From NCBI GenBank assembly GCA_028534125.1, contig CM052837.1:37014001-37078000 (forward strand): 64,000 bases of DNA, in the 5' to 3' direction. Shown piece after piece: positions 10,778 through 53,277 of the stretch. Under the pieces are notes generated by a model. That model saw only the letters and a list, made by a program, of their open reading frames with translations. It was not told the DNA's origin and made no database searches. A program made the translations under genes and the position numbers. The stretch is from Lama glama. Lineage: Eukaryota. Numbering within the stretch: the first letter of the stretch is position 1; each line of letters begins with the position of its first letter.

Positions 10778-10798
10778 TTCAGCACCTCGGACAGCGCC
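10778..10798 (+). promoter_or_regulatory. Canonical RE1/NRSE (REST binding site)
   Basis: TTCAGCACCTCGGACAGCGCC matches every specified position of TTCAGCACCnnGGACAGCGCC. Confidence 0.92.
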
Positions 10799-11194
10799 CG
10801 CCATCGCCGCCCCGGGGCCAGGTTTGCTCTGTTTTCTTGGGGCCTCAGGATTACGGATGATTGCACAAAGCCATGATGGACGTACCCTTTCTGGGGCCAA
10901 AGCGTCTGCTTTTCTCCTCAAAGCCTCCCCTGGCTCAGAACAGGACGGGGTTCAGGCGCTGGCTCACCACCAGCTCCTTTGCTGTGTGATTTCATCACAC
11001 CCCTGGTCTCAGCTCCCACCAGCCTGGAAGGAGGGGCACCACGTCCCAGCTGAGGCCTCGCTGAGGGTCCTCGGGTGTGACCTGCTCTGTGTTATTGGTT
11101 TACCTTCCAGCATCTTCTCTCCTCCTTGGTCGAAACCTCTGCTTCTGCCTGTTTCTGCAGCCGAGATGCTGCCTGTTGACTGACTCCTGTCCCT

Positions 11195-11255
11195 CCAAAC
11201 AGGTGTGGTGCTGGCACATGGTAGGACCTGATACGTAATTGTTGATTGAATGAAA
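11195..11255 (+). mobile_element. L2 3' tail
   Basis: ctggcacatggtaggacctgatacgtaattgttgattgaatgaa. Confidence 0.65.
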
Positions 11256-11711
11256 AGAGCGCGACTTCCTGATTTCCTTCCTGGAAACTCGATTGTGCAG
11301 ATGCCAACAGAATTCAATTTAAATGTGAAAAGAGAGTAAACAAACCTGTAAGTTGCCGGCTCTCCACGGAGTCAGCACGTCGTCGGCGCCGAGTGCAGGC
11401 GTCACTAGAAGGAAATGGCTTGTTTTTCCGGGTTCCCCTCACACAGGCTGGAGTAAAGAGCGGGGTGAGCAGGCTGAACAACTCGAGCCGTGTTTGCCTG
11501 TGGCTTGTGGGTGGCGTTCCCAGCCTTTTATGAACGGCTCATGATAGCGGTCATTCTCAAGTGGAGAAATGGCATCCTAGCCAAGGGGCCCCCGTGTTCT
11601 TAGAGAACATGGGACATTCCCAAGTACCTGACCTCCCCGAGGGACCATGCAGCCTGCACACAGACAGGGAGCAGGGCAGGGGCTGGTCCTGCACCCGCTC
11701 ACCTGAGCACC

Positions 11712-11895
11712 TGTGAGTTTCCTGTGGCCACAAACTGGGGGCTTAAAACAACACAAACATATTCTCTCACAGTCCTGGAGGCCACATGTCCAAAGTCAAA
11801 GTGTCTGTAGTGTCAGTTCCCTCTCGGGGTCCTGAGGGGGCCTGTGTTCCCTGCCTCTCTTGGCTCCTGGCAGCTCCTCTGTGCCACTGAGGCCC
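11712..11895 (-). mobile_element. MLT1 (ERVL-MaLR) LTR fragment
   Basis: cacaaactgggggcttaaaacaacacaaacatattctctcacagtcctggaggcc is the typical antisense MLT1 3' end. Confidence 0.85.
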
Positions 11896-12299
11896 CCAGT
11901 CCTTCGAGAGGAGTTGTGCGGTGGATGCCGGCAGGGCCAGGACCAGGGAGACCACCCGTCCAGGTGCCCCCGCCCTCCCACCTCCTGGTGCACATGTGCA
12001 GGCCTTGCATCTCCCAGTCCAGCGCCCAGAGTTTGGGGGTCATCCCAGACAGCCACAAGCAATCAGTCAAGCCACAGGGGCAGCGCGTGCATCCCCCCCT
12101 CACCTGACCCCAGGCCGATGATGTGTCTGGAAACACCCAGGAGGCCCTTCCTGCAGCAGAGGGGTCGGGGCGGCGTCTTCCTTCACCAGCTGGCTCCCAT
12201 CTCTGCCTATAAGTCCCCCTCCACCTTCTCCATAAATGGCTCCCTCTAAAAACACCGTCAACACGCTACAGACCCAACACACTCCCGCAGAACCGCTCC

Positions 12300-12420
12300 A
12301 TGATCGTCTGTAATTGCTGAGGATTAATTTGCTAATTGCAGCGAACCTGCATCCTTTTTGTTTTATATCAATTAGCAGAGTAATTAAAAGAAGCAATCTC
12401 TTTGACAGCTTCTCCCTGGC
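12300..12420. promoter_or_regulatory. Homeodomain-site cluster, candidate CNE
   Basis: Five TAATT/AATTA cores in about 80 bp plus TGACAG (MEIS/TGIF type) at 12403-12408. Confidence 0.55.
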
Positions 12421-13569
12421 AGACTTGGCCCCGGAACTAATGAGGCCAGGCTGCCTTTCACGGCCTCCATGTGGCCCTGCCCTTCCGCATGGCCTCCTGC
12501 GAACACCGTCCTCTGACACAGGAGTGCCCGAGATGAGGAGGCTCTGAGGCGGAGGGGCCAGCTCCGGGGTCCCATTGGGGTCTTCATGGAGCAGGGGACT
12601 CTCCAGCCCACCGACTTCCCTGTGGCTCCTGGATGCATGGGAGGAACAGATCCCTGAGACCAATGAAGAGCTGGAGCCCTGCACGGTCCCGCCCTGACCA
12701 CCCAACGCCCCAGGGCAGCCGAGATGCCCTACAGGGCCCACCTTCCGGCCGAGTGGACGTGATCTCTGCCCCTCCATGTGGTGCCCGTGAGGACGTCACG
12801 TCTGCAGAGGTGCCTCAGCAGGGCATCCGGTGAAGACATGAGGACCTCTGCCCTGGACAAAGGAGGGATGGCCATAGCGCGTGCAGGGAGCACGGCTGGG
12901 TGGGTGGCCTTCTAGGGAGGGGCTGCTGTGCCCACCCGGACCCTGGCCAGGCCTGGGAGGAGAGTCTGACGGTCCCGGGTGGGGCCGGGCCCAAGACAAG
13001 AGGGCTGAGGCCCGGCTGGGAAGCCACCCAGCTCAGGTGCCCTTAGCCAGGAGGGTCAGAATAGGGGGACGTCATGCTGGTCAAGGCTGGCTGGGCATCT
13101 GGGTGGGCCTCTGGGTGGGCCCGTGTCTGCCTCCACCACCAGAGTCCCCCCTCCCTTGGGCTACATGCACATGTGCACATGCACACACGTGCACACACAT
13201 ACACTCCACCTCTGCGCCAGGTCAGGTCGGGGTCGGGGGGACCTGCTATAGCTGGGCCTTTCCTCCTTGACCTCCGAGCTCCCTGACCGCAGCCCTCCGT
13301 CCAAATGGGGGTCCTTTCTGGCAGGTCTGCAGCTAGAATCTCCATCTTTTCCAAAAATAATCAGAACGTGTCTTCTGCTTCTAGAATCTCGGTTTTCAGG
13401 TGTCAGAAGGGGGCGGAGATGGATGCTCCGTGAGGACAGTGTCCTCTGCTCTGTGCCGGGCTTGGCTGCCCACCAGGGGCCCAGGGCCCCAGTTAAACCC
13501 AACTTTGAAGTCCATCCCTATGGCTTCTCCTTCACGGCCTCAGAGGAAGCTGGACCCAGGAGCTGTGCC

Positions 13570-13950
13570 CATTTCCTGGGGCTGCTGTAGAGAAACACCA
13601 CCCCAGGCGGCTGCATTCTGATCTGGAGGCCAGAATCCAAAACCAGGGTGTGGGCAGGGCCTCCGGGGGCTCCAGCGGAGGTCCTTCCTGCTTCTCCCAG
13701 CTTCCCGGGGTTCCAGACATCGCTGGGGTGTGGCCTCCTGCCTCCTGTCCCTGCCTGCTTCTTCCCAGGCTTCTCCTCTGTGTTTCCCTCTGTCCCCTCG
13801 TTTCCTTATAAAGACCAGATTAAGGGCTCTGCCTAAAAGGGGATGGGCTCATCGGGAAGCTCTCATCACATCTGCAAAGATCCTGTTTCCAAATAAGGTC
13901 CCATCCGAGGCTCTGGGTGGACATGAGCGCGTGGAGGGCGCTGTTCACCA
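13570..13950 (-). mobile_element. MLT1 (MaLR) LTR
   Basis: tctggaggccagaatccaaaaccagggtgtgggcaggg ... tcacatctgcaaagatcctgtttccaaataaggtc. Confidence 0.85.
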
Positions 13951-14030
13951 CCGCAGGTGCTGCCCTGCTTGGCCGGCGCCCCCTTCTCTGGCCCCGCTGC
14001 CTCCTCCAGCCTGGGGGCCCTCACCTCCAG

Positions 14031-14191
14031 ACTGGCTGCCCTGCCACAGTTCAATTTAAATTTTAGAAAAACAACTAATTCCTGGTACAATGTACCCAAA
14101 TACTGCGTGGGACGTCCTCACACCCCCGCCCTCTGTTGTTGCTCTGAGATTCCCACTTGACCAGGTGTCCCGGATTTTACGGGCTGCCCTA
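14031..14191. mobile_element. MER53-like palindromic DNA transposon relic
   Basis: cagttcaatttaaattttagaaaaacaac ... tgtacccaaatactgcgtgggac ... gttgttgctctgagattc ... gctgcccta follows the MER53 layout (consensus recalled, not aligned). Confidence 0.6.
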
Positions 14192-15458
14192 ATCTGAGCC
14201 GGTGTCCTCATTCACCAGCGGCAGCAGCACCTTCGCCCAGAAACACGGAGGTGAAAACAGGACACTTGTTCTGACGGCGCCCGCTCCCTCCTAATCCCAC
14301 ACTTACTTGCGGTGGTGGCTGTCCCCAGCCCAAGGTCCTGTCACGGACACTGTGACTGGGCGCACGGAGCTCCACCCATGTGCTCTGTACGGGATGAACC
14401 GCGGACCCGCTCGTGGGGAGTCGGGCAGGCGGGCCAACCTCTCCCGGGGGTGTAAATCTCTCTCGGCCAGAAGGAAGGCAAATCTCATGGGGACACCTGG
14501 GCCTCAGTGATGACCGTTCATGTCCACAGCCAGGCACGGACGCTGTCTCAGGAGCAGGGCAATGAGCATATGGTGGGTGGACGTGGCCTGGATTCTCATG
14601 CTGTGGACAGACAGCTGGATGGATCTCAGACACTTTCTTATCCCCACCAGCCAAATGCCCCTCTGTCTGCAGCCCCAGCCGGCCCCTCCTGGCCACCGTT
14701 CCTCCCCATCCTCGAGGACAGGAAGGACAGGAGTTCCACCCAAGGTGAGCCCACCTCTGGAACAGGGGTCCCCTTGGTCCTCTTCCCTGGGCCCCGTCCT
14801 TGCCCAATGCACCTCCTTGGTTTTGGAGTGCTCCCAGTAGGCTCAGACTCTGCCCAGCGACACCCACTGCTGGCCGCACACCCTTTGCTCCAGTACGGCG
14901 CACTCTCAGGGGTGCCACCTGTCCCCTTGCTGGCCCTGCTTTGAGGATGGTCCTCAGCAGGACAGGACAGGGTGAATCTGAGCTCCCAGGAGGAGAGATG
15001 ACCCCGTTCCACACCTCACAGTCCTGCAAGTCAAACAGTGTGAAGGCCCCAGGTCTCCCCTCAGGCCAGGAGCCCCCAGAAGGAAGCCCTTTGAGGGAGG
15101 GCACCTTGGTCTCAGTGGTCAGTGTGTACCAATTGCTGAGAGAAGAGGTGGACGTTCGGGGGACATGGCCTGGAAAGCCAGCAGTTAGCACTGCCCCCAC
15201 CTCCACCACCCAGACAGGCCCAGCCTCATTTCTAAGATGTGAAAAATGGTGTTTCCTCCCCCACAGAGGGGGAAGGGATGGATGACCACTTGTGCCAGTG
15301 ACCCCGGTGTGTGTGGGGGGGTGTTCAGATGTGCACACCCTCACCTCCATATTTACAACCTTCATCTCCATCTTCACAAGCCCTCATCTCCATATTCATG
15401 AACCACCTCCATGCTGTCACATCCTCATCTCCCAGTTCAGAGCCAGAGCCCCCTTTAC

Positions 15459-15657
15459 CTGCCCGCAGAACTGCTGGGGGGCCCCGGCCGCTCCCACACA
15501 ACCAAATGCACCAAATGCCGGGGCCAGGAGGGGTGGGGAGGGCAGGCAGGCGGCATCATCAGCAACAAGTCCTGGGGGACCCGGGGGCCCTCCTGGACGG
15601 AGAGGCCCACACAGCTCCGTGGGGGAGGGGCGGGGGCGCGGCAGGCCGGACCAGCAT
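15459..15657 (-). other. Candidate internal exon (199 nt)
   Basis: Long minus-strand pyrimidine tract (ccccttttctctcccgtctcctcg...ctcctgccttcacgtcgccag|) ending at 15658; donor CAG|GTAAAG at 15458. Confidence 0.35.
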
Positions 15658-16489
15658 CTGGCGACGTGAAGGCAGGAGACACAAACCCACAAATCGAGGA
15701 GACGGGAGAGAAAAGGGGAGCAGCTGCTGCGTGTGGGGGCCGCGGGGGCGCTGCGTGGTGAGCCGCCAGGTCGACCAGGCTGGGTGAGACGACGGTCGCT
15801 GCCCCTAAGTGGCGGCGTCTGGAGGCGCCTACGCTCAACTGCTTTGCCGGCATCCAGTCTTCGCTGCCCTCCCAAGGGCCCCGGCCTAGGGGTGGAGGCC
15901 GGGCGGTGTCTGCAGGAGCGCCGAGCCCCAGGCCCTGTGGCCTTGCCCCGTCCCCACGGGTCCCCCACCCTCCTCGGTGGAGCCTGGGCTTCTTGTTCAA
16001 AAGCGTGGATCTCGAGTCTGTGAACAGAATCACTTTCCATATGCCGTTCTGTGACTTCGCCATTCGCTGCGCTGGCAGCCTGGGGGGTGGACTCCGTGAG
16101 GGCAGGGCTCTCGGCTGGACCCACGGTCCCCCCAGCCCACTGCCCACCCCCCAGGCTGGGGCTCTTGGGCGCGGTGACAGCCCCTCGTGCCCACACGGAG
16201 TGGACCTCTTGCTGGTTTGTGAGCGTCTGGTCCTCTGCTGGGTCAGGCGCCTGTTCAAGTGTTTCTCCTGTTCCTCCAGGACCTGTCTCCTTGCCGACCT
16301 GAAGTTCTCTCTGTTCCAGGTTTGAGTCCTTGGTTGGACCCTGAGCCAAATTTATAAGCAAGTGGCCTTTTGGGATGAAAGCACGTGGACCTGGGCCAGC
16401 CAAGGGCAGGACCAGGCACGAGGCATCAGCAGGAGTGGGGCACGCGGCCTCTCAGCGAACACAGCTGGCAGCTTTGGGTCACCATGTCT

Positions 16490-17710
16490 TCGCTCTGCCG
16501 GGCCTTCTGATGCACAAAGTTGTTTGTCTTGGTGTAAATGACTTTGTGTGGGTAGCGCTTTCGGGACCTTGTTTCAGAGTTCTTGTTCCCCTGCCCTGAG
16601 GTCGTTAAGATGGTTTTCTGCAGCATCTCTAGATGTTTTATGATTTCGCTCTTTACATGGGTTTATCGCCCACCTAGAGCCATTTGTGTACAGACAGGTA
16701 ACTTTGTCCCCACATGGATGCCAGTTTCAAAGAATCTAGCCTTCCTCCACAATCCGCCCCATCCGGGTCACACTCGAGTGTCGGGGGGCCACTTCTCTGC
16801 ACTGTGTCCTTCTCCAAAGGGCCCCTGTCCATCCGGGCACCGGTTCCTCCCCCCGACCCCCACTAGAGCGAGCCCTTCCCGCCTCCTCCAAGTCTGGGCT
16901 TTTCTGCGCTTTCTTGTCTTTTCTGCGCAATTTCGAATCAGCTTGTAAAACCAGTGCCTCTCTCTCCCTCTTACGCACACAGACACACGCACACACCCCT
17001 GCCCCGTGGGATTCTTACCGGCACTGATTTGAATCTACAGGTAAATCTGGGGAGAACCGTCAGCTTTCTGATATTGCTCCTTCCAGCCCCCGTATCTGCC
17101 TGCATAGCTCAGCCCTCTTTAATTCCTCCGCTGAGATGGGTTAGCGTTTTCCACGAGCGAACTAGATTCAGCTGTCATATTTACTCCGGTATATTTTGTG
17201 TTTTGATGTTCGGGTAAACCGTGTTCCGTGTGCTCGTTTCCTCCTGCTTGCTGTCAGTGTATACAAATGTGCTTGGTTTCCGTATACTGCCTCGAATCCA
17301 GAACTCTTGTGCATTCTCCTGTCAGTGCTAATAGCAGCCACAGGTCCTGGCGGGTCTCTGCAAACACCGTCTGCCCGCCACCTGCCCGGGGCGGCTCGTT
17401 TCTCCCGGACCCTCCAGTGCTTTCTGTCCTTTTCTATCCCCACGCCGGTGGGTCCTCAGTCCGTTGGACGCTGGTGCTGAGAGCTGCCCCCGCCTGGCTC
17501 CCGACAGCTTCGTGCAGCCCGGGGCACACCGGCCGCCCTTGGTCAGCAGAAGAGTCCTTTCTCTCCCAGGTTTGCTGTGAGGCTTTTTAAGTCTACATTT
17601 AATCTCAGCAAACCTTTTCTGCATCCGTGGGAGGAACAAAGTTTCCCTCGACACTGCCCCGTGGAGGGTCGCTGGGACACTCAGTCCACTCAGTCTTATC
17701 CAATGCCCCG
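16490..17710 (-). mobile_element. Old L1 (L1M) ORF2 fragment, GC-drifted
   Basis: Antisense L1 signatures: atttcgaatcagcttgt, gatttgaatctacaggtaaatctggggagaac, gctgtcagtgtatacaaatg. Confidence 0.8.
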
Positions 17711-20000
17711 ATGGCCCTTGAGGTCCCTGCTGCTGTCCTGACCACACCTTAGGGCCCCAGGACATGGACACCTGGTGCAGCAGCCTGGCCACGGCCGAGC
17801 CCCCGCCTCGGGTCTCAGATCCCAGGAGAGGGATGAACGAGACACAGCTGCAGCCAAGCCCAGACACTGCCGCCAGCTGCCCGAGGCCGTTCCCCCTCCC
17901 CGTGGGGCCTGCGTGGTCAGCAGGGCGGGGCCGTGGGGAAGGGAGGCCCCACCCGGGCGCCCGGTCCGGACTGAGTGGCCTTCCCCCCCTCGGGCCCCTC
18001 CTCACCCGCCAGGCCCGCGGCCGTGTCTCTCACTGTCTGTGTTGAGACTTTGGGGTGGGGGGCGTTGACTACTGTCCCACCGCATGACATCATAATAGGC
18101 TGCTGTCCCGGCAAACAAAAGGCTTTCGGAGATGCGGAGCAGACACGTCCTATTTATGTCGTCATGACTAGACGGGAGTCGGGGGGGAACATCTGTATGC
18201 TGCCAGAAACAGTAACAGCCGTCCCCTCGTCTGTGCTGGGCTTAAATTACGCCCCGTGCTGCACAGAGAGGGGGTTTTTGTGTGTGTGCAGGTGGGTTAA
18301 TCAAAACCCATTGAAATGCAAAAGGAGGCCCCCCCACTCCTGCCTGGAGAGAGGGGGCTCCTGACCCAGGACAGGGACAAGGACAGAGTGCATGTCCCCT
18401 GAGCCTCTGGGTGAGTGCAGGTCAGGGGTCGGACAAGGCTCTGGAGCCCGATCCCCAAAGACCAAGGGAGGCAGCCACGTCATAAAAACAAGGATGTGTG
18501 GGAACCACAGCCCAGCCCGGGGGCCCAGCCCGGGGGCCCAGTGTCTTCCCCACCCCCACCCTACTTTGGAAGAAATAAACCCAAGAGCTGTTTTATTACC
18601 TAAAACAGGTGTCCCAGGAGAGCTTTCCACCTGTCCTCAAACTGCATTTTCCATCATCATCAAGAGGCCGTTGGGGGAAGAAAAGTCTCGTCCCAGGTCC
18701 TGGCAGCAGGGACAGACCTGGGGGCCTCCCCCCAGCACCGTGAGGGGCGCGCGTGGGTGTGACGTCACGGGTGTTTAAGTCACTGTCTCTGGGGTGGCCC
18801 TGTATCCTGCGGGTTGGGGCATCTCCTGTCCTGTCCCGTCAGCCACTGGAGAACAAGGCGGGCGCCGTGGACAGCACCTCCCCGGGTGGAGAGCGAAACA
18901 AAGCCGCCCCCACCGACCCCAGCCCCTCTCGGGCAAGGGGACACAGCCCAGCTCCGCCCGCGGCTAGTCCGTCTGTGGGGCCATGGGGACCAGCACCTGC
19001 ATGTGCGCCTGGCAGTCACGCCCGACTCCTTCTCTGTCAGAAACAGTATCAGACATTATTTTGCTCTCCCTTTGGTGAAGATGAACTGTTTGGGACCGGC
19101 CGTGTGGCCTCAGTGACACGTGTCTGGGCTCCGCGGGCCAGACAGAGGGCCCATCTGCTCTCCCTCCCAGGAGGTCCACGGGCCGGCGGCCACTAGCCTG
19201 AGGCCGCTTGAGGGCAGAGAGGCTCACTGAGCATGTGCACGTGGGTGGGCGTGCCCCCAGACACATGCACGAGCCAACCAGCAAGTACACAGGTGCACAC
19301 ACGTGTGCACACATGTAGCACACACACAGCCCTGGGACATGACCCAGAGCCCCGTGCCAGACGACCTCGCTCCCCAGGGCATCTGCCCAGTGTGTGGGCC
19401 GCACGTGGTTTAGCACATGGTCCTCCTGGTTTCGCCTGGCCTCCCGTGGACCCCAACTCAGAATGTGAGTCGGAAACGAGGGGCTCGCCCACCTCACAGA
19501 CTTGTACCTCCTGAACACAGGCCGTCCCCAGAGCCTGGCCCCTTCCATCTGCATGCCCAGGCCTCTGGCCCCTTTAGCCAGACTCCCCGACACACCACGC
19601 CTCATGTGTCACTGAGGTCACACAGCAGGTCCCACACACTCGCCTCTCCAGAGCTCGGAGCCCCTTCCCCCCTGAGTCCGCATGCTCCCTGCTTCCTGTC
19701 CCTACCCGGGGCGCAGCCCTCTCCAGCCGGAGGGGTCGGACAGTCCCCAGAGCTGCAGATGCCTGCGCCAGCCACCCTCGGCCTCATGTCCAGCCGGCCC
19801 GGAGCCAGGTGGAAAGGCCTGAGAGTCTGGCTCTCATCCCCCGGCCACCCCTGGGACTCTGCATCTCCTGGCGGGAACCCTCTCACCCCAAGCCCACCGA
19901 GACTTTGCCGAAGGGTGACCAGGGCCTGGCGCGGAGGGGCTGCTCAGAAGCCAGGAAGGTGGTGCGCAGGACGAGCTCGGGTCTGCGATTTCCACTCCAG

Positions 20001-20851
20001 GGAGGTGCCACGGCCCAGCCTCGCAGGACCCAGAGAGCCTGGCCCAGACGGCCCAGAGGCCCGGTGCACAGCGGGGTCATGGGCTGCGGCCGTCTCCAGC
20101 ATGAACGCACCTGGGTGGGCTCGGCCCCAGGGCCCGGTGCACGTGCTCCGCTGCCTTGTTTTCTTCAGCCCCAAAGGGGAGGACGCGCTGGCCACTCTCC
20201 GCCTTGTGGTTGCCCTGCAAGGCCGGCCCCAGCACCCACGGCAGAGGCCACTGTGCCACGTGGCAGCGCGTCAGGTGACCCCTCAGCCGGCCCTGCCCGC
20301 ACCTCTGGTCCCGGGGCTGAGGCACAGCGGGTCGGGGGACTCTAGGGACGCGGCCCCGTTCTCGGGGATTTCAGGGGCTGCACCATCATAGCTGACCTGG
20401 TGTCACCAGCCCCCTCACGTCCCCCAGAGGACATTCCTCGGACACTGGACAGACACTGGCATTGACGCGTTGAAGTCAGAGAGGCCTGGTCAGGGTCCCA
20501 AGTGTGACCTCACCAGCCAGGCACCCGGACAGCAGTGACCCCTCTGAGCTTGGCCCTCCTCGCCTGTGGAGGGAGGCGGGCAGCCCCGGTTGGTGAGGGG
20601 ACGTTAAGGTGACGTCCAGAAAGCTCACAGTCCAAGGATAGGCCTGGAGTGAGGCCACCAGACCCTGCAGCCAGTTGGGCTGGCTCCAGGCAAGGCTGCT
20701 CCTCTGAGAGGCGACGGCCGACCCAGGAAGGCAGCTTGGATTTGCAGCCCAGACAAGCTGCCCGCAGCCCGTGACCCCGCTGTGCACCAGGCCCCTGGGC
20801 CATCTGGGCCAGGCTCTCCACGGTCCAGCGAGGTTGGGGCGTGGCACCACC
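20001..20851. repeat. Inverted repeat pair, 20001-20090 and 20761-20851 (about 87% identical)
   Basis: Manual alignment of the reverse complement: about 12 differences over 91 nt. Confidence 0.9.
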
Positions 20852-35300: not shown

Positions 35301-35366
35301 GCCGTGGCGGGGCTGGACTCCGCAGAGGTGCCGGCCCTCGGCCCCGTTTAAAGGGGCATCTCTTAC

Positions 35367-42108: not shown

Positions 42109-42189
42109 CTGAGCTCTACTGAGCCCTACCTGGCCCTACCTTAACCCTACCTGAGCCCGGCCTGACCCTTACTGACCCCTACCTGAGCT
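42109..42189 (+). repeat. Degenerate 10-11-bp minisatellite (CCTGAGCCCTA-like, about 8 units)
   Basis: ctgagctcta ctgagcccta cctggcccta ccttaacccta cctgagcccgg cctgaccctta ctgaccccta cctgagct. Confidence 0.8.
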
Positions 42190-43799
42190 GGGAATTCCGC
42201 TTGCCCCTCCCCCATCTGCTGTCCTGCTCCAGCCACGGGGCTGATCCCCTCTCTGCTCGAGGCCCTCGGACCTCCAGTGGGGCCCAGGTGGGAGGAGAGC
42301 TGGGGGCCTGCCTGCCTGCCTCCTCCACCTTGGCCCCTCTCCTGGTAGCCCCCCACAAACACTGCCCACCTCTGTCCTCTCTTGACCCTCAGGTGAGGGT
42401 GGTTGCAGCTCATGTAGCTCTGTGTCCCCTGGAAACAGCCTCTTCACATCCAGTCCCGCAGGGCTCACTGCCAGCCCGCAGGGCTTTGAGGATCAGGTGG
42501 CCCACCTTCGAGAGGCCCACAACAGAGGAAGAGGAAGGGGTTAGCAGGGAAACAGAACCACAAAGTCACCTCACACACTGGTACCAAGGGGCCAAGGAAG
42601 ACTGCAGGGCTACTCAGGGCTGGGGCCAGTCCTGGTGCTGAGCCACTGGAGGAGAGCACAGGGGGCAGACTGCATCTCTGTGTGGAGAGTGGATTGTCAG
42701 CAGGTGCGGGGCTGAGCGGGTGAGGTCCCTGCCCAGGGTGGCAGGGGTTGGGGCCCTCTGGGGAGGCTGCACTGCTGGGGGGGGACAGGCTCAGTGTTGG
42801 GCTGGGGCAGGTGGAGAGGGCAGGAGGTGTTGAGACCTGTCCTGGCCAGCGATGCGAGGGCAGAAGCCCTGGGGTCAGTCAGGAGGAGGGGGCAGGAGGC
42901 CTGAGGCGAGAGTCCTGGAGGGCACCACACCCAAATCGCTGTCCTGCAGAGGGGCCCCAGCACCCCAGAACAGAGCGGAGACCTCCGTGAGGCACAGAGC
43001 CACAACCAGGGCGGGCACGGGCCCAGGACCACCGAGGCCTGCAGACAGCACCGCTGTTGGACTGCAATGGGGGCAAGGCTTACGGTCCTGGGGGACTTCT
43101 CAGGGGTTTGGAAACCTGCCCCTCACCAGCAATCCCCTGACTTCCCAGCACCCAGAGGATGGCGCGTGAGGCCCGCGTTCTGGACAAGCCAGAAAGCCCA
43201 GGCTGTCGCCCACACTTCGTGGCTGGCTAGGGGTGTGCTCTATCCCTCTCAAATTAAGGGAAGGGAGCAATGACCAGGGGTCCCTTTCACAAGGGACCGG
43301 GCGCTGTCAGGGGTTGCAAGAGCCCTGGCTGTCTGGGCAGCACCTTGGACAGCTCCCAGCCTGTCCCGAAACTCCCGGCACCACCGAGCAGGGTGCACCC
43401 TCTGGGGGTCCCAGCTCCCTCTCCTGCTCCTGGGGGTCCCTCAGGATCTCTGATGGAGGAGCCAGGTTCAGCTGGTATCCCCAGCGATGGCCTGACCAGG
43501 GGGAAGGAAGCACCACCCCCCTGCACTCCCGAAGTCGAGCTTGGGAGGCCAAGGGCAGCAGCCCCTCCCCTCAGGTCTTCATGACCCAAGGCCTCTGATG
43601 GTCCCCGTTCTAGTACCACTCTGCTGGTCCATTTCTGATCACCTCCTTTCTCCTTGCTCCTTGCTCAGTCCTGGTGGAGGCCAGGTGCTCTTAGATGAGG
43701 TGGGGGTCTCAAAATGGGAGAAAAACTTCCCAGGACTGTCTTACTTCAAAAGTGTGCATTGTTATTAACATGTTACTTTTAAGAATGAAACAGCTAAAT

Positions 43800-43940
43800 T
43801 CTCTCACAAGTCCCAGGAGGTGGGTGTTGTCAGTGTCCCCATTTCTCAGATGAGGACACTGAGGCTCAGAGTGGCTCAGGGGCCCTTGGTGAGGAGAGGC
43901 AGAGGGGATTCACCGAGGCCTCTGATTTCAGAACTGACTC
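43800..43940 (-). mobile_element. MIR SINE
   Basis: tccccatttctcagatgaggacactgaggctcagag. Confidence 0.85.
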
Positions 43941-45269
43941 TCCAGCCAAGAGGCCAGGGCCTGCCTGAATTTGGACACCAGCAAAGATGACCCAGAATGC
44001 CCCCAGGGAGAAACTCAGCCAGGTACTGACCGACTCATGGAGGCCATGTCCCTCCAAAGGGGCCAAGTTCCAGGGGGGTGAGGTGAGGAGCATCCAGGGG
44101 CCTGGTGGGGTAGGCCAGGCCCCCTGCAGGAAGGGTCCTGAAGGAGAGGTGACAGGCGGGTAAGGAGAGAGGGGACCCCAGGTCTGGGAGAGGAGTGAGG
44201 GAGCAGGGAGGCAGGGTGGGTCTGGGGGCCTCTGGCCGAAGGTCAGCTGAAATGGGGGACACGCACGGTGTCCTCACCTGCCAGCACGATCTCTCATCCG
44301 TTATGCCATGGGAGCCTTCCACTTTCAAGAATGATTTACAAGAAAATATTTTTGCAAAAGCAAGTTCAGTGTGTCCTCATCCTCTCTGCGATGGTGGTGA
44401 TGTGAATGGACTGTTTCATTAATATTAGCCCCGGCCCTGTCAGCAGGATGGGCCCTGGCTTGGCTCAGAGGGCAGAAACCCAGCCAGCCAAGGTGCATAC
44501 CAGGAAGGCCCCAATCCCCCTGAGGGCCACAGTCCCTCAGAGATGGGGGTCCGGGTGCAGTGAGGGAAGGATGCTCAGGGTGCCCTGCCTCTGTGGTACA
44601 GCCCACTCTGCCAGAGCCACGGCTCAGGACCTGGGTCCATGCAGCTGCAGCAAGTCACCTGTTAGAGAAGGACAGAGGGAGTGTGGCTGAGAGCTGTGTG
44701 AGACCCCAGAGGGCCCTGTCCAGGAAGGCAACCACTCAGGCCCCAGAAAAACCCTTCCATCTGCATGGAGAGCACAGCACAGCTCCCTCCCCGCCCTCTG
44801 CTCTCCAGCTCTGACCTATTTTCAGGGACAAGGGATCCTCTGAATTCCTCCTTCCTGCAACCAGTGGTGTAAAGGAAAGCTTAGGAGGAGTGGCGCCTGG
44901 GAGGTACTTGAGCCTGGCCTTGGGATGGGGATGGGGCAGCTCCAAAAGGCAAGAGAAAATGGTCATCCTAGATCAGACTGGCCCCTGGAGGAGGCAGTGT
45001 CCAGGGACAGGATGCAGGCCAGCAGGGCCTCCACCCTTTCTAAGGCAAAGCTCAGGAATCCGAGTCGCTGGAGGAGAGCTCACTGCTCACCGGAGCTGGT
45101 GTCAGGGAGAGTGCACACTGACCCCCAGGACTGCATCTCTGGTCCAGCCCTCCCTGCCACTCTGCACGACAGATCAGTGGTTACTTGCCCCAGGAAGGGG
45201 ACAGGGTCCAGTGCAGAGGGATCAGGGACATACCTAAGGCCAACAAGCAAGAGACAGAGGGCACCATCC

Positions 45270-45640
45270 AGCGAGGAGGTGTAAGAGCATGTAGGAGACT
45301 TTCATAAGGGGCATCTTACAGAGCCATGGCAGGAGCAGAAAAGCCAGGGACAGAACAATGTCCTGGGGTTCATGGAATTGAGGCTGTTGCCCCTCCAGGC
45401 TAGAGGAACACAGGGGAGCAGCTGCTGGAAGGAGCTGTGGCTGTCAGTCAAGGACAGGGCACCCTGCAAGGAAGGTGTGGGATAGACACTAACTCAATCT
45501 CCCTCATCCCTCAGATCTGCTGGTGCCTCCCAGTCAAAGCCAGCTGGAAGCCAGAGGCATGGAGCCCACAGATGCAGCACCTGGGCAGCCACCCAGAGCG
45601 CAGAGCAAAAAGGAGGAGGAAGAGATAGGTGCACATTGCA
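45270..45640. mobile_element. Old ERVL-type LTR fragment (LTR33-like)
   Basis: ccctcagatctgctggtgcctccca ... ggaagccagaggcatggagcccacagatgcagc; family assigned from memory. Confidence 0.45.
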
Positions 45641-48048
45641 GAGAAAACCGCAAATCTTAGCAGTCATTCACACCTTAGTGAGAGTTGGTGTCTAAGAAAC
45701 CCCAAAGGAAGGTATAGGGAGAAAGAAGGCTTGGAGAGACGGTGAAAAGCAGAGCTGCACAAAGTGGTCCAAGGGATGGCAAAGGGTGACGGTGACCACA
45801 GTGCATATCCAAGTGGACATGTCCGCTCTTCGCCTCTGCTCCTGCCTGGCAGACATTCAGCTCCACCTCCCTCCTCACAGACCTCCAGGTGCGCTCCCTG
45901 GTGGCACAGAATTCTGGCACACCCTCCCTTGTCCAGCCTGAGACACCTCCAGTAATAGAGACAAGGGCCCTCGGCAACCCCAGGGTCAGCTCGTGCCACT
46001 CCACCCCCAGTCACCACCACGGCCCGCTCCAGGCGGACCTCCCACCCTCGGAGCAAGCTCTGGGTGGAAACAATCCCAAGTTAGGAAGTGAAGCCTGATG
46101 CTTGAGCGAGCCCCTCGTGCAGAAACCGTGAGACCCTGGGCGTGGAGGCCCCTGAGGCCGCCAGTCCGAGAGCCTCAGTGTCCCTGCCCCACTGGGCCCC
46201 CAAGACCCTCTGCGGTTCTGCCTCCACTTCCCCTTCGGCCCCGTCCAGTCCTCTTATTTAAGAACCTGTGTTTTAGAGAGAGCTTTGTGTCTCTACTAGT
46301 AGTGGGAAATCAATCTCACTCGCCCCGAATGAACATCGGCCCTGTGATGCACACAAAGCCAAGCAGCCTCGCTCAACCCCTCGCGCCTGGGGCCCGCAAG
46401 AGGCTTGAGTGTGGCGTGAGCGGCTGAGCATTTGCGCCGGGGCCCCTCCTCCACACACAGGCCCCTGAGGTGGGCGGTCCCCCACCCCAGCCCCCAACGC
46501 CCCTACCAAGTCGAGACCAGGCCCCTTAGTGTGGCCCCACAGCCCCCCAGTCTGGGCAGCGCCTGTCCACCCGGCCCCACATTCCCACTGGCACCCCCTG
46601 CCCTCCTCCCAGGGCACCCAGCACAGGCTCGGTGTCTGTCCCCTGCCGCCAGTGACTACAGCACACGGCCTCCCCCTGCCCCACCGCCACCTGCGTAAAC
46701 CCTGGGTTCTCGCATCTCCTCCCAGGCTCCGCACTGGTCCCATAGAAGGGTCGATTTTCCTGGGGACCAAGGCTTGTCCTCCCCAGCCCCCACCCCACCC
46801 TCCCATCCCAAGGCCTGGTCTGAGGTTCCATTTGTTCATCCCAGCAGGGGACACTGTGACATTTGCCTCGAGGGGTGGGGGGCAGCCCTGAAGAGGATGG
46901 CAGGAAACTGTTCCTGTCCCTAAGAGCAAACAAGTCGGAGAAGCCCCTCCAAGGCCCCCCTTTCCTGCTGGGGTCACTCAGGAGGAGTAGAGGTGGGGGC
47001 TAGGGGGCTGGAGAAAGGTGCGGATTAGGGAGGAAAAGGGAGCCGGAGGCTGTCAGAGATGAAGGGAGGTGGGGGGCGGGGATGGCAGGAGGATGGAGGC
47101 AGAGAGGGAAGGTCAACTGGGTGGGAGGAGGGACGGTGGTGAGGGAACGACAGGAAAACCCAGATGGGAGAGGTTCCCAGAGGCAACACCCTGCAGAGGG
47201 GGGCACTGCGGGAGGGCCTGGGGACCTGGGGGGCTGCCTAGAACCCCTCCTCCCCCGGAGGCCACCATCCTTCCTCACGCCTGGAGCAGGGCTGTGGCCC
47301 AGGCTGTACGGGGAGGAAGCAGGGATGAGGCAGTGCCCTCACCAGCGTAGACTCGGGACAAAGAGTCTTGGTCTTGGGGCCAGGCTGGGGAGACAAATAG
47401 GCAGGTGGGGTAAGGGTCTCCTGGAGGAGATCCCAAGGCCAAGGGGGTCCCTGCCCTCAGCTCTGCAAGGCCCAGATTCCAGAAGGAAAGTGCCTCTAAG
47501 TGGGCACCCTACCCCATGGGGTCCTGCACACCGGGGTGGGCTGGGGCGCACAACCACGCAGGAGGGGCTCGGGGCTGGCGACGGGTGCTCTGCAGGCCCT
47601 GGAGGGCTCCCAGGGCAACGAGACTCCACAGCCCGCTCCTGCTCTGGCCTCTGTGCTTTCTGGAGGGCAGCAGTGGGGGTAAGCCCTTGCCCTTGCATTC
47701 CCAGGGTGGGGTCTGCTGACACTGGACCCCTAGGTGGGGCCAGTGGGGGCCAGCCTGGGTCACGTCCCCTCAACACATCCTCTGGGACCCGGGCTGGGCC
47801 TGGGGGCAATGGGGCTGCTCCAACACCAGGACCAGCCCAAGGAGCGGGCCGGCCCTGATGTTGGGGGAGGGCGGCTGGGGGGCAGAGGAGCCTCCTGGAA
47901 CCTTAGGAAGTTGGGCAGGGACGTGCGGGGAACAAAAGGCCCATTTCCACCACTGACCAGGCATCCAACCAGTGCCCCTCACTCCAGGCCCTGCCTGGGA
48001 CTCTGCGCTGACCTCCACGCTCCATGACTGCCCAGGTGCGCCACTTAC

Positions 48049-48330
48049 CTGGCTTCCTGGAGAGCACCCGCCAGCGTCCACAGCCCCGTGACCCAGCTAG
48101 AGAGTTGCATCCCTGGGGCTGGTGGGCCCTCGCCTGTCTGTCCCTCGCAGTGGGGCTGGGCTAGCTGGGGCCAGGGAGGAGGGGCAGGGGGCGGGAGCTG
48201 CAGGAGAGGGGCTGCAGCCTCATTTCCATGCTGGGCCCCGTGCCCCCGCCCCATTGTGCGCCCAGGCCGGCGGCTCACAATCGCTGCCTTTGTGGTGGTG
48301 GTGCTCCCGCCCTCCGCCCTCCGCCCTCCG
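48049..48330 (-). other. Candidate alternative 5' exon ending GAAGCCAG|GTAAGT
   Basis: Second perfect donor on the minus strand (intron starts 48048); tandem GC-box-like cccgccctccgccctccgccc near 48305-48330 lies upstream; 5' end is a guess. Confidence 0.35.
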
Positions 48331-50308
48331 CACTCAAGCGTGGAGGCGTCCTGGCCCCCCACCCACTTCAAAGGGCAGCGGGAGGAATTCCCCCTCTGCC
48401 CCCCCCCCGTCCTGGCCTCCTCCAGACCTAAGCCAAGGGGTGGAGGGTCCAGGCGGAGACCTGAGCTCCTACACTGCCAAGGGATTGTGGGGGGGGGGTG
48501 TGCTGTGTTTACATCCTCCCCCCGACCCCTCCACGTCCCACCCCAGAGAAATAGAAGCAGCGAGTTTGGCAGGTTGGTGTCCTTGGAGCAAGGCCCAGCT
48601 GTGTAGGGTGGGGCCTCAGGCCCCACCCCTGGGGCCCCACCCCTCTCGGCCTCAAGCACCTGCTCTGTCAGTCTTTGGGAGTGGTGGGAGGGAATGGGGG
48701 AATGGGCACCTCGGGGATGTTGGGAGTCACTGGTGCCTGGGGGAAGAGAATTTGGGCCTTGCCGCAGGAGCAGGCTGTGTGTGAGGGCCTCTGAGGTCCT
48801 GGACCACCCAAGGGGGAGCTTGGAAGTTGTAGATCATTTTAAGGCTACAGGGGGCACAGAGCAGGGGTTGGGCCCGGAATCCTGTGGCGCTGACAGCAAA
48901 CTCTTCCTCCCTTTGGCTGGAAGCCCTCACCCCCTCCCCCGCCCCAGGCTACATCTGCACTCAGACCCCTGCCACCGGCTTCCAGCCTCTCCCCACTTCC
49001 CTCAGGTCGCAAGACTCTGTCCCCATTTCTCCCCCACCTTGGAACGAGGGCTGGGTCAAGGGTCAAGCGGCCAAGAGCCAGTGGTTTCCAGATGCGGCCA
49101 CAGCACCTCCCCTTTCTAGAGGAATGACAGGCCTCGCACCCAGGAGGGGGCGGGCGTGTGACGAGCAGGCAGGAGCAGAAAGGGCGGGGGTTCTTTGCTG
49201 GTTTCTGTGGATTTAATCCCACGCTATTCGCAGGCTTTCACGGCGGCAGAGGGGAGGGGAGGGGGAAGGGGGTCTCAGCCGCGTCCCTCCCTCCCCCTGC
49301 CCGAGAAGCCACCTGACCCATCTCCAAGTTGTTGGCCCTGGCTTGCGAGGGGGTCTTTGTGCGCAACGGAGGAGTCTGCCTGGAACCTGGAGCCCTGAGC
49401 CACCGGCCGTGCTGCCTTCCCGTACCGTTCGCTCGGAGCCGGGGAGCCCCTGCCCCCATCTGGGGAGCTGGCAAATAAATAAATCCACAAACACAAATTC
49501 TCAGTGTGCTGGGCGGAATTGGCGGCGTGGGCAGCGGCGAGAGAAGGCGCACGGGGTGCGGCCAGGCTGGGGTGCTGTGAGGCTGCACCAGCGCCCAAGA
49601 AGCCGATGGGAGCACACACCCGAGCAGGGGCCTGGCAGCAGTAAGTTGACTTTTATTAAAGCTTTGGAGGCTTCAGGGCCACCAAGAAGGTCCCCACTGG
49701 GCTGGCGCAGAAGGGCGGGCTCCCTTTCCTACCCAGCACCTGCCCCCATGCTCAGGGCAGCCCTTCGTCCTACATGCCAGGACTGGGGGTCACTGGTCGC
49801 TAGGAATGGAAGAAGGGGTGATCCTTGGGCCTCATGGGTGCTCAGGATTCCAAGAGACAAAATAGTAACAGCAAATGCCTGTAGGCGGTCCTGGGGATGC
49901 GCAAAAAGCGGGCCTGGCCCAAGGGAAGAGGGGCAAGACCCCTCCCCCACCTGACCTGCTTGGGGAGAGATCTGCCTGCCAGTGGTGTGGGGAGACAGAG
50001 AGAGGTGCTCGGCCAGGGAAGGGGGCAGCCCCTGTGACCATTCCCTGGCCCTCGCTGGAGCCAGCCTTGTAGGAAAGGGGATCCAAAGAAAGAGCTGGGG
50101 GTCTTTAAACCGGAGGCACCATCCATCGCTCTCAGAATGCAGACAAGCTCCAGGGAGCTGGAGGCCAGAGCCGGCCTGCACCTGTCCAGGAAGCCAAGGT
50201 GGGGGTGCGGGGCGGGGGGCTCCAACCATCTGAAGGAGAGGACAGAAGTTGGGGGAGAGAAGCCAGAGGTGAGATGGGAGAAGATGAGAAGGGGGTTCAG
50301 GGTTCTGT

Positions 50309-50329
50309 TTCAACACCATGGACAGCGGC
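50309..50329 (+). promoter_or_regulatory. RE1/NRSE (REST site)
   Basis: TTCAACACCATGGACAGCGGC; two mismatches to consensus, canonical 2-bp spacer. Confidence 0.75.
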
Positions 50330-51644
50330 GCCCCCCTCCTTCCCCCCACCGCCACCCGTAGCTGTGGGGACCCGCCCCAGAGGCGTTAGAGGCCCCGGAT
50401 GATGGTCTCTGATGAAGCTGAATTTGCCAGCTGCCCAGTGTCCCTCGCCCTCCACCACTACCAGCAAGCATCCAGCCTGGGCCCAGCTGTGGCTGTGAAC
50501 CCTGCAGGCTTGGGGTCTTACTGGGCATTGGGCTTGGGGAGGTGAAGCTCAGCTTCTGAGTGGAGGAGTTGGGGGTGGTTTGTGCCCCATGCAAGGGCGA
50601 AGGGCCACTCCTGACACCAGCAAAGGGCGAGCTGCGGCAGCTGGGAAGGGTTCTAAGGCGGAGGGCCGTCCTGGTGGGTTGAGGACTGAGGGTGGGGGTG
50701 GGGGTGGGGGAGTGTTGAGGACAGAGTCACTCAGAGTGCCAGCCCCCTTCCTAGTCGGCTTTGCTTCCCGAGGGCTCCGGCAGTGCTGGACAGGGCCAGA
50801 AGGAACAGGACGGTGTGCCGAAGGTGGGAGGATCAGTGGGCTCTGCTCTGAGGGCAGATGGCACAGGAGCTGGGTGGGCCTGGAGGGAAGGAGATGGGAC
50901 AGTGTCCTGCTGGCTGGGACTGGGCCTGTGGCTCCCTCACCGTCTGCACTGGAACAAAGGCCTGTGGAGGAGGCATGAGCTGGTGTGGCTTAGGGAAGCC
51001 ACTGGTCCTTGGCCCTAGAGGGACAAATCAGGTTCAACCCTCAGAAGGACTCCAAGGAGAGAGCACTGGCTCAGCAATCAGGCCATGAAGTGTGTCGCCT
51101 GTGCTTCCGTGGGCCGTGGGCTGGGGGACAAGGACTTCCCACGCGAGTCAGGGCCGTGGGAAGAGCAGTCTTGGATGGCGGGTGGCTCCCTGCCCCGGGA
51201 GGTATAACCACCCGGCAGGGCAGACGGCAGCGGGCCTGCGGCCACTCACTAGCACGGAGCTCTCTCAGCAAGTACCTTGCCTTTCTCCCAGGGCTGGGGG
51301 TGGGGGTGCTGGGGAGTGTGTCATTCGGGAGAAAACAGGAGGATGCGACCCGCAGTGAAGGCCTGAGTGAGGTGGTGCGTCTAGGGGTGAAACTAGGCTG
51401 TGTGCAGCCAAGGCGTGGCTGGTGGGTGTCAGTGGGAGTTCAGAGGGGCTGCGGCCGGTGGGCTGCAGGAGGAGCGTTCGCGTGGGTGCAGGACGGGTGC
51501 GGGAGGGGTTCGGGTGTGTGACAGAGAGAGGCGTTTCCGTGGGCAAACGTGTGGCCACAGGGCACTGGGGAGGGTCGGAGGTCCTTGAGGGTGGCGTCCG
51601 TGCGAGCGGAAGAGCGTGCGGGGCGCGACGCGGCGAGTGTGCGC

Positions 51645-51869
51645 NNNNNNNNNNNNNNNNNNNNNNNNNNNNNNNNNNNNNNNNNNNNNNNNNNNNNNNN
51701 NNNNNNNNNNNNNNNNNNNNNNNNNNNNNNNNNNNNNNNNNNNNNNNNNNNNNNNNNNNNNNNNNNNNNNNNNNNNNNNNNNNNNNNNNNNNNNNNNNNN
51801 NNNNNNNNNNNNNNNNNNNNNNNNNNNNNNNNNNNNNNNNNNNNNNNNNNNNNNNNNNNNNNNNNNNNN
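51645..51869. other. Assembly gap (N run)
   Basis: N characters. Confidence 1.
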
Positions 51870-51959
51870 GCCAGCCCGGGCGAGGAAGAGCTGGGCGCCC
51901 CCAGCTCTGAGCCCGCGGACGGTCGGCTCCCAGCTGGCCCGAGGTGCTCGGGGACTTAC

Positions 51960-52239
51960 CTGGCTCCATTTGCGGAGTCCCCGCGCCCTCCTCCGCCCCG
52001 GGCAGCGGCGTGTGGGGCCCGCGGGGCGCGCGGGGCCCGAGGAGGCGGCGGCGGCAGCGGCGGCGGCGGGCGAAGAGCGGCAGGCGGCGGCGGCGGCGGC
52101 GGCGGCGGCTCCCGCCCCGGACGGGTAACTGCGCTCAGGGCCGTGCCGGGGAGAGTTCCGCGAGCGGCTTCTGCGGGTCTTCCTGTGTTCCTCTCCACCA
52201 AGAGCTCGCGGGCCCAGCGGCGCGGGGAGGGCGAGCTCG
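51960..52239 (-). other. Candidate 5' exon ending ...ATGGAGCCAG|GTAAGT (non-coding or uORF-bearing)
   Basis: Perfect donor CAG|GTAAGT (intron starts 51959) inside the CpG island; (GCC)n tract upstream. 5' end uncertain: possible acceptor tctctttttacaacccag at 52240, paired with a further donor CAA|GTAAGC at 52502. Confidence 0.55.
52039..52109 (+). repeat. Interrupted GGC/GCC trinucleotide repeat, pure (GGC)9 at 52083-52109
   Basis: Read directly from the sequence. Confidence 0.95.
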
Positions 52240-52712
52240 CTGGGTTGTAAAAAGAGACTGGTTTCCATTTCTGAGCATCCAGGTTCTTTCTTTTGATCGC
52301 GTTCGTAGCGCGCTAGCGGGTCGGGCCGGGGAGAGGATACAGCCGGAGGAGGGCAGCTGCCCTGCCGAAGCGGGCTCCGCGCCTCTTCGCGGCCCGCGGC
52401 AGGCGGCCGGGCGCGCACACGCTCGCTCACCCCCTCGCCTCCGGCGCCTCCTCGCCGCGATTCCGCGGGGCGCCAGGCTCCGGGGACACCCGAGGGGCTT
52501 ACTTGGGCCCCCTCCCTGCTGCGGAAGGGGAAGAAGAGTGGGCTCTTCGGAGTAGGGGGCGGATCCGGGCTGGAGTCCGAGGAAGCACAGTCGGCGTGGC
52601 GCAGCGCCCCCGCCCCGCCCGCCCGCAGAGAAGACGCCGGAGTGTTCGCGCCCTTCGGGCGAGGACCCCACGCGAGCCGCAGCCGCGGCCCAGACCGCAG
52701 CCTGGCCGCTCA

Positions 52713-52860
52713 NNNNNNNNNNNNNNNNNNNNNNNNNNNNNNNNNNNNNNNNNNNNNNNNNNNNNNNNNNNNNNNNNNNNNNNNNNNNNNNNNNNNNNNN
52801 NNNNNNNNNNNNNNNNNNNNNNNNNNNNNNNNNNNNNNNNNNNNNNNNNNNNNNNNNNNN
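52713..52860. other. Assembly gap (N run)
   Basis: N characters. Confidence 1.
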
Positions 52861-53256
52861 GTGCCCCTCCCGCGGGAGGAGGGCGAGCCCGGCCCCCGGC
52901 GGCCCCTCGCTCCGCGGACAGATCCGATGAACAATGCGCCCGCCCAGAGGGCGGCCCAGCTGCCGGGCCCGGGACCTGGCCGCGGGGACACAAAGGGACC
53001 CGCACGCCGCGGGTGTCGCGGGGCGGGTGGGGGCGATGGAGGGGGAAACCTGTGGCCCAGACGAGACTGCGGCCACGTGTGTCCGCAGCACGGAGCGCCC
53101 AAAGGACGGCGGAGACCGGGAGACAAAGGGAGGGTCCGCGGGGGGCGGCGGAGTGGGGTGTGGGCGCCAGCGTGGGTGGGGGACGCCGTGCACCAGGGAG
53201 TCCGCGGCCGCACGGGCTCGGTCCGGGGAGGTCCGGCCGCACCGCGGGCAGGTTGG

Positions 53257-53277
53257 AGCGCTGTCCGCGGTGCTGGC
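53257..53277 (-). promoter_or_regulatory. RE1/NRSE (REST site) in the CpG island
   Basis: Minus strand GCCAGCACCGCGGACAGCGCT; core CAGCACCnnGGACAGCGC intact. Confidence 0.85.

What the first reader, a model, noticed from the sequence alone, without database searches (positions are those of the whole stretch)
10778..53277. Three strong REST/NRSF RE1 elements around one promoter and its long intron
Seen: a full-consensus RE1 at 10778-10798, a two-mismatch RE1 at 50309-50329, and a core-perfect RE1 on the minus strand at 53257-53277. Two bracket the candidate first exon (about 1.6 kb and 1.0 kb away) and one lies about 41 kb away. Established: RE1 is a 21-bp site that recruits REST to silence neuronal genes in non-neuronal cells, and a full match is very unlikely by chance in 64 kb. 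Inference: the locus is a multiply REST-locked neuronal gene, and the distal site may loop to the promoter.
Basis: partly seen in the sequence, partly recalled or inferred. Interest (0 to 1): 0.7.

Follow-up and report, generated by a model that had tools for sequence, protein, structure and literature searches.

The report
REST sites around miR-124-3 and HAR1
Four short DNA sites matching the binding motif of the REST repressor lie around the brain microRNA gene miR-124-3 and the HAR1 RNA region; three of them match human sites already in print, and they likely keep these RNAs switched off outside neurons, so the finding is real but mostly ordinary.

Summary
They far exceed chance. The window is the mammalian BHLHE23–HAR1–MIR124-3–YTHDF1 interval: HAR1 at 4417-4534, a mir-124 hairpin at 52736-52807 (+), and no Pfam-matching frame. 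So the bracketed 'gene' is the microRNA miR-124-3, not a shown spliced gene with a 41-kb intron. The sites at 50309 (-2.4 kb), 53257 (+0.5 kb) and 10778 (-42 kb; human -61.9 kb) each match a published human RE1 at 20 of 21 bases with alignable flanks; all three are in a REST ChIP-derived library. The distal site lies 6.2 kb from HAR1, itself REST-repressed in human, so HAR1 is its likelier target; looping to miR-124-3 is untested. One point not found in print: miR-124-2 carries the same bracket (upstream same-strand site with a rare G-to-A change, 5 such sites genome-wide against 194; downstream opposite-strand site identical over 18 bases), suggesting the bracket predates the duplication that split the two loci. 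Verdict: already known; interest 0.2.

The parts
4417..4534 (+). HAR1 element (HAR1A/HAR1B non-coding RNA region); likely target of the distal RE1
   Evidence: Rfam RF00635, 130 bits against gathering 40, full model
10778..10798 (+). RE1, full consensus; ortholog of human hg19 chr20:61,747,869-61,748,069 element (-61.9 kb from MIR124-3); 6.2 kb from HAR1, 42.0 kb from the hairpin
   Evidence: human oligo 20 of 21 bases identical, plus identical 15- and 12-base blocks at window 10828-10842 and 10846-10857, compared by eye; human FIMO score 28.9
43336..43356 (+).
   Evidence: no chr20 entry with coordinates starting 6178-6180 other than the -2.4 kb site in Table S8 of PMC9903721; none between -61.9 and -2.4 kb in Table 1 of PMC2886071
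49159..49163 (.). CRE half site, about 3.6 kb upstream of the hairpin, at the distance of the conserved human half site (-3577)
   Evidence: Table 3 of PMC1794552; one of 3 half sites in 46-56 kb, so position match only
50309..50329 (+). RE1 with weak left half (TCAACACC), 2.4 kb upstream of miR-124-3; the published miR-124a-3 NRSE
   Evidence: 20 of 21 bases identical to Table 1 of PMC1794552, human distance -2437 against -2427 to -2462 here; 12 of 13 upstream flank bases identical by eye; human FIMO 24.4
51501..53500 (.). CpG island, likely promoter and body of pri-miR-124-3 (start site not determined; two stretches read N)
   Evidence: CpG observed/expected 0.84-1.6 in four 500-base bins against 0.42 for the window (two bins contain N)
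52736..52807 (+). mir-124 hairpin, assigned as miR-124-3 (reads N in the window)
   Evidence: Rfam RF00239 search of the own genome: 82.2 bits, cut-off 49, G000:C22:37066736-37066807, one of 3 copies; paralog assignment by neighbours and RE1 fingerprints
53257..53277 (-). RE1, perfect core, 0.45-0.49 kb downstream of the hairpin on the opposite strand; ortholog of the human +0.4 kb site
   Evidence: 20 of 21 bases identical to the human oligos and 29 of 30 at window 53071-53100, by eye; human FIMO 28.8; +0.4 kb row in PMC2886071 Table 1

Best explanation
The window is the HAR1–miR-124-3 interval, and its RE1 motifs are conserved REST sites that likely serve two non-coding genes: the pair at 50309 and 53257 brackets the miR-124-3 CpG island and likely silences pri-miR-124-3 outside neurons, while the site at 10778 more likely silences nearby HAR1A/HAR1B. 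REST bound at these sites would recruit Sin3A/CoREST-HDAC complexes (established for REST); when REST falls in neurons the promoter would be freed for activators such as CREB, and miR-124 then represses REST cofactors (SCP1, CoREST), the known double-negative loop. Shown here: motifs, locus identity, match to human sites. From papers on human and mouse: REST occupancy and repression. Inferred: occupancy in this species, and which gene each site acts on. The fourth site (43336) is likely a younger, lineage-specific addition upstream of miR-124-3.
For: Locus: HAR1, mir-124 at 52736-52807, YTH gene 14 kb beyond the hairpin whose best structure match is YTHDF1 (408.6 bits against 373 for YTHDF3), single-exon bHLH gene 41 kb left of the window start (name BHLHE23 recalled). 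Paralog control: the other two mir-124 loci carry the published miR-124-2 site (-3815, human -3795) and miR-124-1 site (-21077, human -21721), so each of 3 loci is assigned by its own RE1. 3 of 3 named sites match human elements at 20 of 21 bases and lie in a library built from ENCODE REST peaks, FIMO 28.9, 24.4, 28.8, above that paper's silencing threshold of 20.86. Human miR-124-3 is REST-bound in all cell types examined but neurons (PMC4055426, passage). REST knockdown raises HAR1A in two glioma lines (PMC11602025, passages). HAR1 is flanked on its other side by a further RE1 that matches the human -108.5 kb site at 19 of 21 bases.
Against: No occupancy or expression data for this species. 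PMC2886071 Table 1 lists the human -61.9 and +0.4 kb sites as not bound in its K562 ChIP-seq, only -2.4 kb as bound. In the MPRA rows I could see (GM12878, 4 of 5 enhancers; file cut) the motif effect was in the repressive direction in 4 of 4 for the distal site and 2 of 4 for the -2.4 kb site, best logFDR 1.27-1.28 (about FDR 0.05, not clearly significant), and NA in 4 of 4 for the +0.5 kb site. Mouse pri-miR-124-3 is reported as minimally expressed even in cortical neurons (review PMC8269442), so loss of REST may not be the limiting step. The assignment of the distal site to HAR1 rests on distance only; in PMC9903721, 2 of 3 validated RE1 deletions changed distal genes. HAR1 transcription in this species was not shown.
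Confidence: 0.8

Rival explanations
1. All sites, the distal one included, act on one promoter (miR-124-3) through a chromatin loop.
For: No protein-coding gene detected between the sites; distal action of RE1 sites is documented; miR-124-3 is listed as a candidate target of long-range regulation (PMC3123655 table); PMC2886071 lists the -61.9 kb site under miR-124-3 by proximity.
Against: HAR1, a REST-repressed locus in human, is 6.2 kb away against 42 kb; the spacing to the hairpin changed from 61.9 to 42.0 kb between human and this genome while the two near sites kept theirs within about 50 bases. No contact data.
Confidence: 0.2
2. The bracketed unit is a spliced minus-strand transcript (first exon ending at 51960, long intron running left), a divergent lncRNA co-repressed with miR-124-3.
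For: A consensus donor CAG/GTAAGT on the minus strand at 51959, one of 2 such donors found in 48-57 kb on either strand; CpG islands often fire both ways (general knowledge).
Against: No joints in 4 of 4 runs laid; two contigs run unspliced across 51959, but these are low-depth contigs from non-brain libraries that may be DNA, and 1 run laid nothing. No acceptor or second exon identified. Human miR-124-3 is described as intergenic without an annotated host.
Confidence: 0.15
3. The sites are chance or decayed motifs in GC-rich DNA without function.
For: The window is 60% GC; the fourth site has no human counterpart in the tables searched.
Against: 0 of 100 shuffles reach the count; P about 1e-7; three sites conserved to human at 20 of 21 bases in REST peaks. 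Chance remains possible for site 43336 alone (about 0.01 expected per window).
Confidence: 0.03

Closest known systems
RE1/NRSE sites of human and mouse miR-124-3 (Wu and Xie 2006, PMC1794552; Smith 2010, PMC2886071; Conaco 2006, cited there, not read)
   Same: Same locus, same -2.4 kb site (20 of 21 bases, distance within 25 bases), same +0.4-0.5 kb site, same distal site (human -61.9 kb), half-CRE at the same distance.
   Different: Interval compacted (distal site at -42 kb); distal site is full consensus here, one mismatch in human; an extra perfect-core site at -9.4 kb not found in the human tables.
REST repression of HAR1A/HAR1B (Johnson 2010, not held; known from reviews PMC3495748, PMC11467921 and from PMC11602025)
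   Same: HAR1 element present with conserved RE1 sites on both sides (6.2 kb right, 12.5 kb left).
   Different: I could not read the primary paper, so which RE1 sites it used is not verified; HAR1 transcription in this species is not shown.
miR-124-2 locus (bHLH–miR-124–YTH paralogous block on C28)
   Same: Same bracket: upstream same-strand RE1 with A for G at position 5 and AT spacer (17 of 21 bases shared), downstream opposite-strand RE1 with GC spacer (18 of 18 identical by blastn), same gene order.
   Different: Distances -3.8/+0.9 kb against -2.4/+0.5 kb; flanks do not align; the hairpin points the other way relative to its neighbours.

Membership tests
Canonical RE1/NRSE | Left half CAGCACC and right half GGACAG with a 2-base spacer in a 21-base site | tested here: met
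   0 core mismatches at 10778, 43336, 53257; 1 at 50309
Canonical RE1/NRSE | Matrix score above the silencing threshold (20.86 in PMC9903721) | tested here: inconclusive
   No REST matrix on hand for these sites; the human orthologs (1 base different each) score 28.9, 24.4, 28.8; site 43336 unscored
Canonical RE1/NRSE | Conservation across mammals | tested here: met
   3 of 4 sites match human at 20 of 21 bases with alignable flanks, by eye; not found for 43336
Canonical RE1/NRSE | REST occupancy in vivo | not testable with these tools
   No ChIP data for this species. Human: all three in a library of motif-bearing ENCODE peaks; K562 table says yes for 1 of 3
Canonical RE1/NRSE | Motif-dependent silencing | not testable with these tools
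   Human MPRA rows seen: repressive trend for two sites, about FDR 0.05 at best, NA for the third; other cell types not visible
mir-124 family (Rfam RF00239) | Full-length match above the gathering score | tested here: met
   82.2 bits against 49, positions 1-72 of 72
miR-124-3 ortholog | Between HAR1 and YTHDF1, with the -2.4 kb TTCAACACC site | tested here: met
miR-124-3 ortholog | Conserved full CRE about 1 kb upstream of the hairpin (human -968) | not testable with these tools
   The expected place reads N in the window; no full CRE in the readable part of the island
   Donor motif present; no joints in 4 non-brain runs; 0 of 139 frames over a Pfam cut-off (exons in shorter frames not scanned)

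The most novel reading that the evidence does not exclude
The RE1 bracket around miR-124-3 is an ancestral regulatory cassette older than the vertebrate genome duplication that split miR-124-2 from miR-124-3: both loci keep a deliberately weak upstream site (rare G-to-A change) and a strong downstream site in the same orientations, and the cassette inverted as one unit against its bHLH and YTH neighbours. It would be a pair of single transcription-factor sites traceable between duplicated loci over some 500 million years, with tuned affinity preserved.
Probability: 0.5. Interest if true: 0.4.

Novelty: already known. Interest (0 to 1): 0.2.

Why it matters
The REST–miR-124 loop is a textbook switch of neuronal identity, and this window shows its cis-elements intact in another mammal; that confirms conservation but adds little. 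Two smaller points could matter to a specialist: the shared bracket of miR-124-2 and miR-124-3 would date REST control of miR-124 to before their duplication and suggest that the weak upstream site is kept weak on purpose; and the open question of which gene the distal site serves (HAR1 or miR-124-3) can be tested with one deletion.

Tried and rejected
Protein-coding host gene: 139 of 139 stop-to-stop frames of 135 aa or more scanned, none over a Pfam cut-off (one weak hit, E 0.0023, below cut-off). Non-canonical RE1 with spacers 0-14: 1 exact case in the window (11187, spacer 14) and 1 in the flanks, not pursued. Splicing from the island: 4 of 24 listed runs laid, no joints; 3 had only 1-3 low-depth contigs, 1 laid nothing; uninformative. 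Conservation of site 43336 in close relatives remains untested. Flank homology between the miR-124-2 and -3 sites: blastn found only the 18-base downstream motif and low-complexity scraps. The A-variant as a microRNA-locus mark: the other 3 of 5 genome sites have no Rfam microRNA within 5 kb (only one tRNA), rejected. A bracket at miR-124-1: no site with an intact right half and <=2 mismatches within 6 kb. Primary papers Conaco 2006, Johnson 2010 and Mortazavi 2006 were not held. PMC5538296, PMC8391852 and PMC5915100 passages gave no site-level detail. Earlier findings: nothing.
Full report
Observation. The three 21-mers are at the stated places. None of 100 dinucleotide shuffles reaches the observed counts (5 against mean 0.77; 4 against 0.47). 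The exact 14-base core occurs 470 times in the 2.35-Gb genome against 3 for the reversed control, 0.013 per 64 kb; three in one window has Poisson P 3.5e-7, and 1.2e-7 under a 4th-order Markov model of this GC-rich window. The pattern was fixed after seeing the sites, so the P values are indicative, but the excess is not in doubt.

What the locus is. The window is G000:C22:37014001-37078000. Rfam finds the HAR1 element at 4417-4534 (130 bits) and nothing in 120 kb of flanks. A YTH-domain exon lies 2.6 kb past the window end on the minus strand and matches YTHDF1 structures best (408.6 bits against 373 for YTHDF3 and 338 for YTHDF2). A single-exon bHLH frame lies 41 kb left of the window; the name BHLHE23 and the human order BHLHE23–HAR1–MIR124-3–YTHDF1 are recalled. 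None of 139 frames of 135 aa or more in the window reaches a Pfam cut-off. As a control, the two other mir-124 loci carry the published sites of miR-124-2 (-3815 here, -3795 in human; CRE -2027 against -1913) and miR-124-1 (-21077 against -21721). The window's copy is therefore miR-124-3.

The sites are in print. Wu and Xie 2006 (PMC1794552; outline and passages with Tables 1 and 3 seen) give the human miR-124a-3 NRSE at -2437; site 50309 shares 20 of 21 bases and lies 2427 bases before the hairpin match (2462 to its middle). Smith 2010 (PMC2886071; passages with Table 1) lists sites at -108.5, -61.9, -2.4 and +0.4 kb; the table is flattened in the text, and I assign these rows to miR-124-3 because the distances fit the coordinates below. 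The supplements of Mouri 2022 (PMC9903721; sections 10, 13, 40, 49 read, supplements searched, several cut) hold human oligos for chr20:61747869-61748069, 61807367-61807567 and 61810248-61810448 (hg19). By eye, site 10778 shares 20 of 21 bases and two identical flank blocks of 15 and 12 bases with the first; site 53257 shares 20 of 21 bases, and 29 of 30 at 53071-53100, with overlapping oligos of the third. That library took motifs inside ENCODE REST peaks of four cell lines; FIMO scores are 28.9, 24.4 and 28.8 against a silencing threshold of 20.86. Against: Smith's K562 column says bound for only 1 of these 3, and the MPRA rows that I could see (GM12878, 4 of 5 enhancers) show scrambled-minus-native effects of 3.07, 1.79, 0.38, 1.28 for the distal site, -0.38, 0.73, -0.02, 1.06 for the -2.4 kb site, NA for the +0.5 kb site, with best logFDR 1.27-1.28 (two of these enhancers are non-responsive in that line). 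Site 43336 has no entry in the uncut score table for human coordinates starting 6178-6180 and none in Smith's list; it may be lineage-specific, and its conservation in close relatives is untested.

How it most likely works. The near pair brackets the CpG island and hairpin and likely tethers REST with its Sin3A/CoREST-HDAC partners, keeping pri-miR-124-3 off in non-neuronal cells; human miR-124-3 is REST-bound in all cell types examined but neurons (PMC4055426, passages), and REST is reported to silence all three miR-124 loci in mouse progenitors in a double-negative loop with SCP1 (review PMC8269442, passages). A half-CRE sits at 49159, at the distance of the conserved human one; the place of the conserved full CRE reads N. 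The distal site is 6.2 kb from HAR1 and 42.0 kb from the hairpin. REST represses HAR1 in human (reviews PMC3495748, PMC11467921, passages; knockdown raises HAR1A in two glioma lines, PMC11602025), and a second RE1 12.5 kb left of HAR1 matches the human -108.5 kb site at 19 of 21 bases. I therefore put HAR1 as the main target of 10778 (about 0.6), without excluding a loop to miR-124-3: 2 of 3 validated RE1 deletions in Mouri 2022 acted on distal genes. Occupancy and target assignment in this species are inferred. A caution: mouse pri-miR-124-3 is reported as barely expressed even in cortical neurons.

The exon and intron claim. Four of 24 listed runs were laid on 51900-52690: no joints, two contigs cross the donor unspliced, one run laid nothing; the libraries are not brain and may hold DNA. 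A divergent spliced lncRNA is neither shown nor excluded.

The one point that may be new. The miR-124-2 locus has the same bracket: an upstream site on the microRNA's strand with A in place of the consensus G and an AT spacer (17 of 21 bases shared with 50309), and a downstream site on the opposite strand identical to 53258-53275 over 18 bases. The A-form pattern TCAANACCNNGGACAGCG has 5 matches in the genome against 194 for the G-form, and 2 of the 5 are these two upstream sites. Both loci sit in the order bHLH–mir-124–YTH (bHLH frames 137 of 234 aligned residues identical), with the hairpin and its bracket inverted in one against the neighbours. This suggests descent of both sites from before the duplication, which I take from general knowledge to be the early vertebrate genome duplication. 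Against: features were picked after the fact; 4 of the 5 A-form sites have an AT spacer, so spacer and variant are not independent; the flanks do not align; miR-124-1 has no such bracket; no non-mammalian genome could be searched. Three paper searches showed no paper on this (9, 0 and 0 listed; of the 9 I read passages of 3), but the primary papers of Conaco 2006, Johnson 2010 and Mortazavi 2006 were not held, so it may be in print.

Verdict. Observation confirmed and extended; interpretation partly supported; the elements are known human REST sites seen in another mammal. Novelty: already known. Interest 0.2; the ancestral-cassette reading has probability about 0.5 and would deserve 0.4.

Noticed in passing
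L004:1866-1931 (window -8134 and -8083): Tandem pair of minus-strand RE1 sites 51 bases apart, 12.5 kb left of HAR1. One matches the human -108.5 kb site at 19 of 21 bases, with the same GGAGAG variant; the other has a perfect core here while the human oligo keeps only its right half (by eye).
   Followed up: partly
L009:3143 (window -56857) and L003:6920 (window 90920): Further RE1-like sites: a perfect core 16 kb beyond the bHLH gene, and a one-mismatch site 27 kb right of the window; 13 sites with <=1 core mismatch in 184 kb in all.
   Followed up: no
G000:C28:15375467-16022280 against C22:36972861-37081024: Same order bHLH–mir-124–YTH on both contigs with bHLH and YTH on the minus strand, but the hairpin is minus on C28 and plus on C22: a local inversion that carried the RE1 bracket with it.
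   Followed up: partly
L021:4963, L022:4955, L023:4998: The other 3 of 5 genome-wide RE1 sites with A for G at position 5; 4 of 5 such sites have an AT spacer, hinting at a dependence between positions. No microRNA near them.
   Followed up: partly
window 18760-18767: The only full CRE palindrome (TGACGTCA) in the readable window.
   Followed up: no
window 48048 (minus): A second consensus splice donor on the minus strand with the same AGCCAG/GTAAGT context as the one at 51959.
   Followed up: no
window about 1000-1120, 2670-2850, 5320-5410, 8080-8400: Short AT-rich islands with TAAT-type words in GC-rich DNA around HAR1; they look like conserved non-coding elements (by eye), unverified.
   Followed up: no
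window 52044-52109 and 57390-57617: An imperfect (GGC)21 run inside the CpG island and a CAC/CAT-rich tandem array downstream.
   Followed up: no
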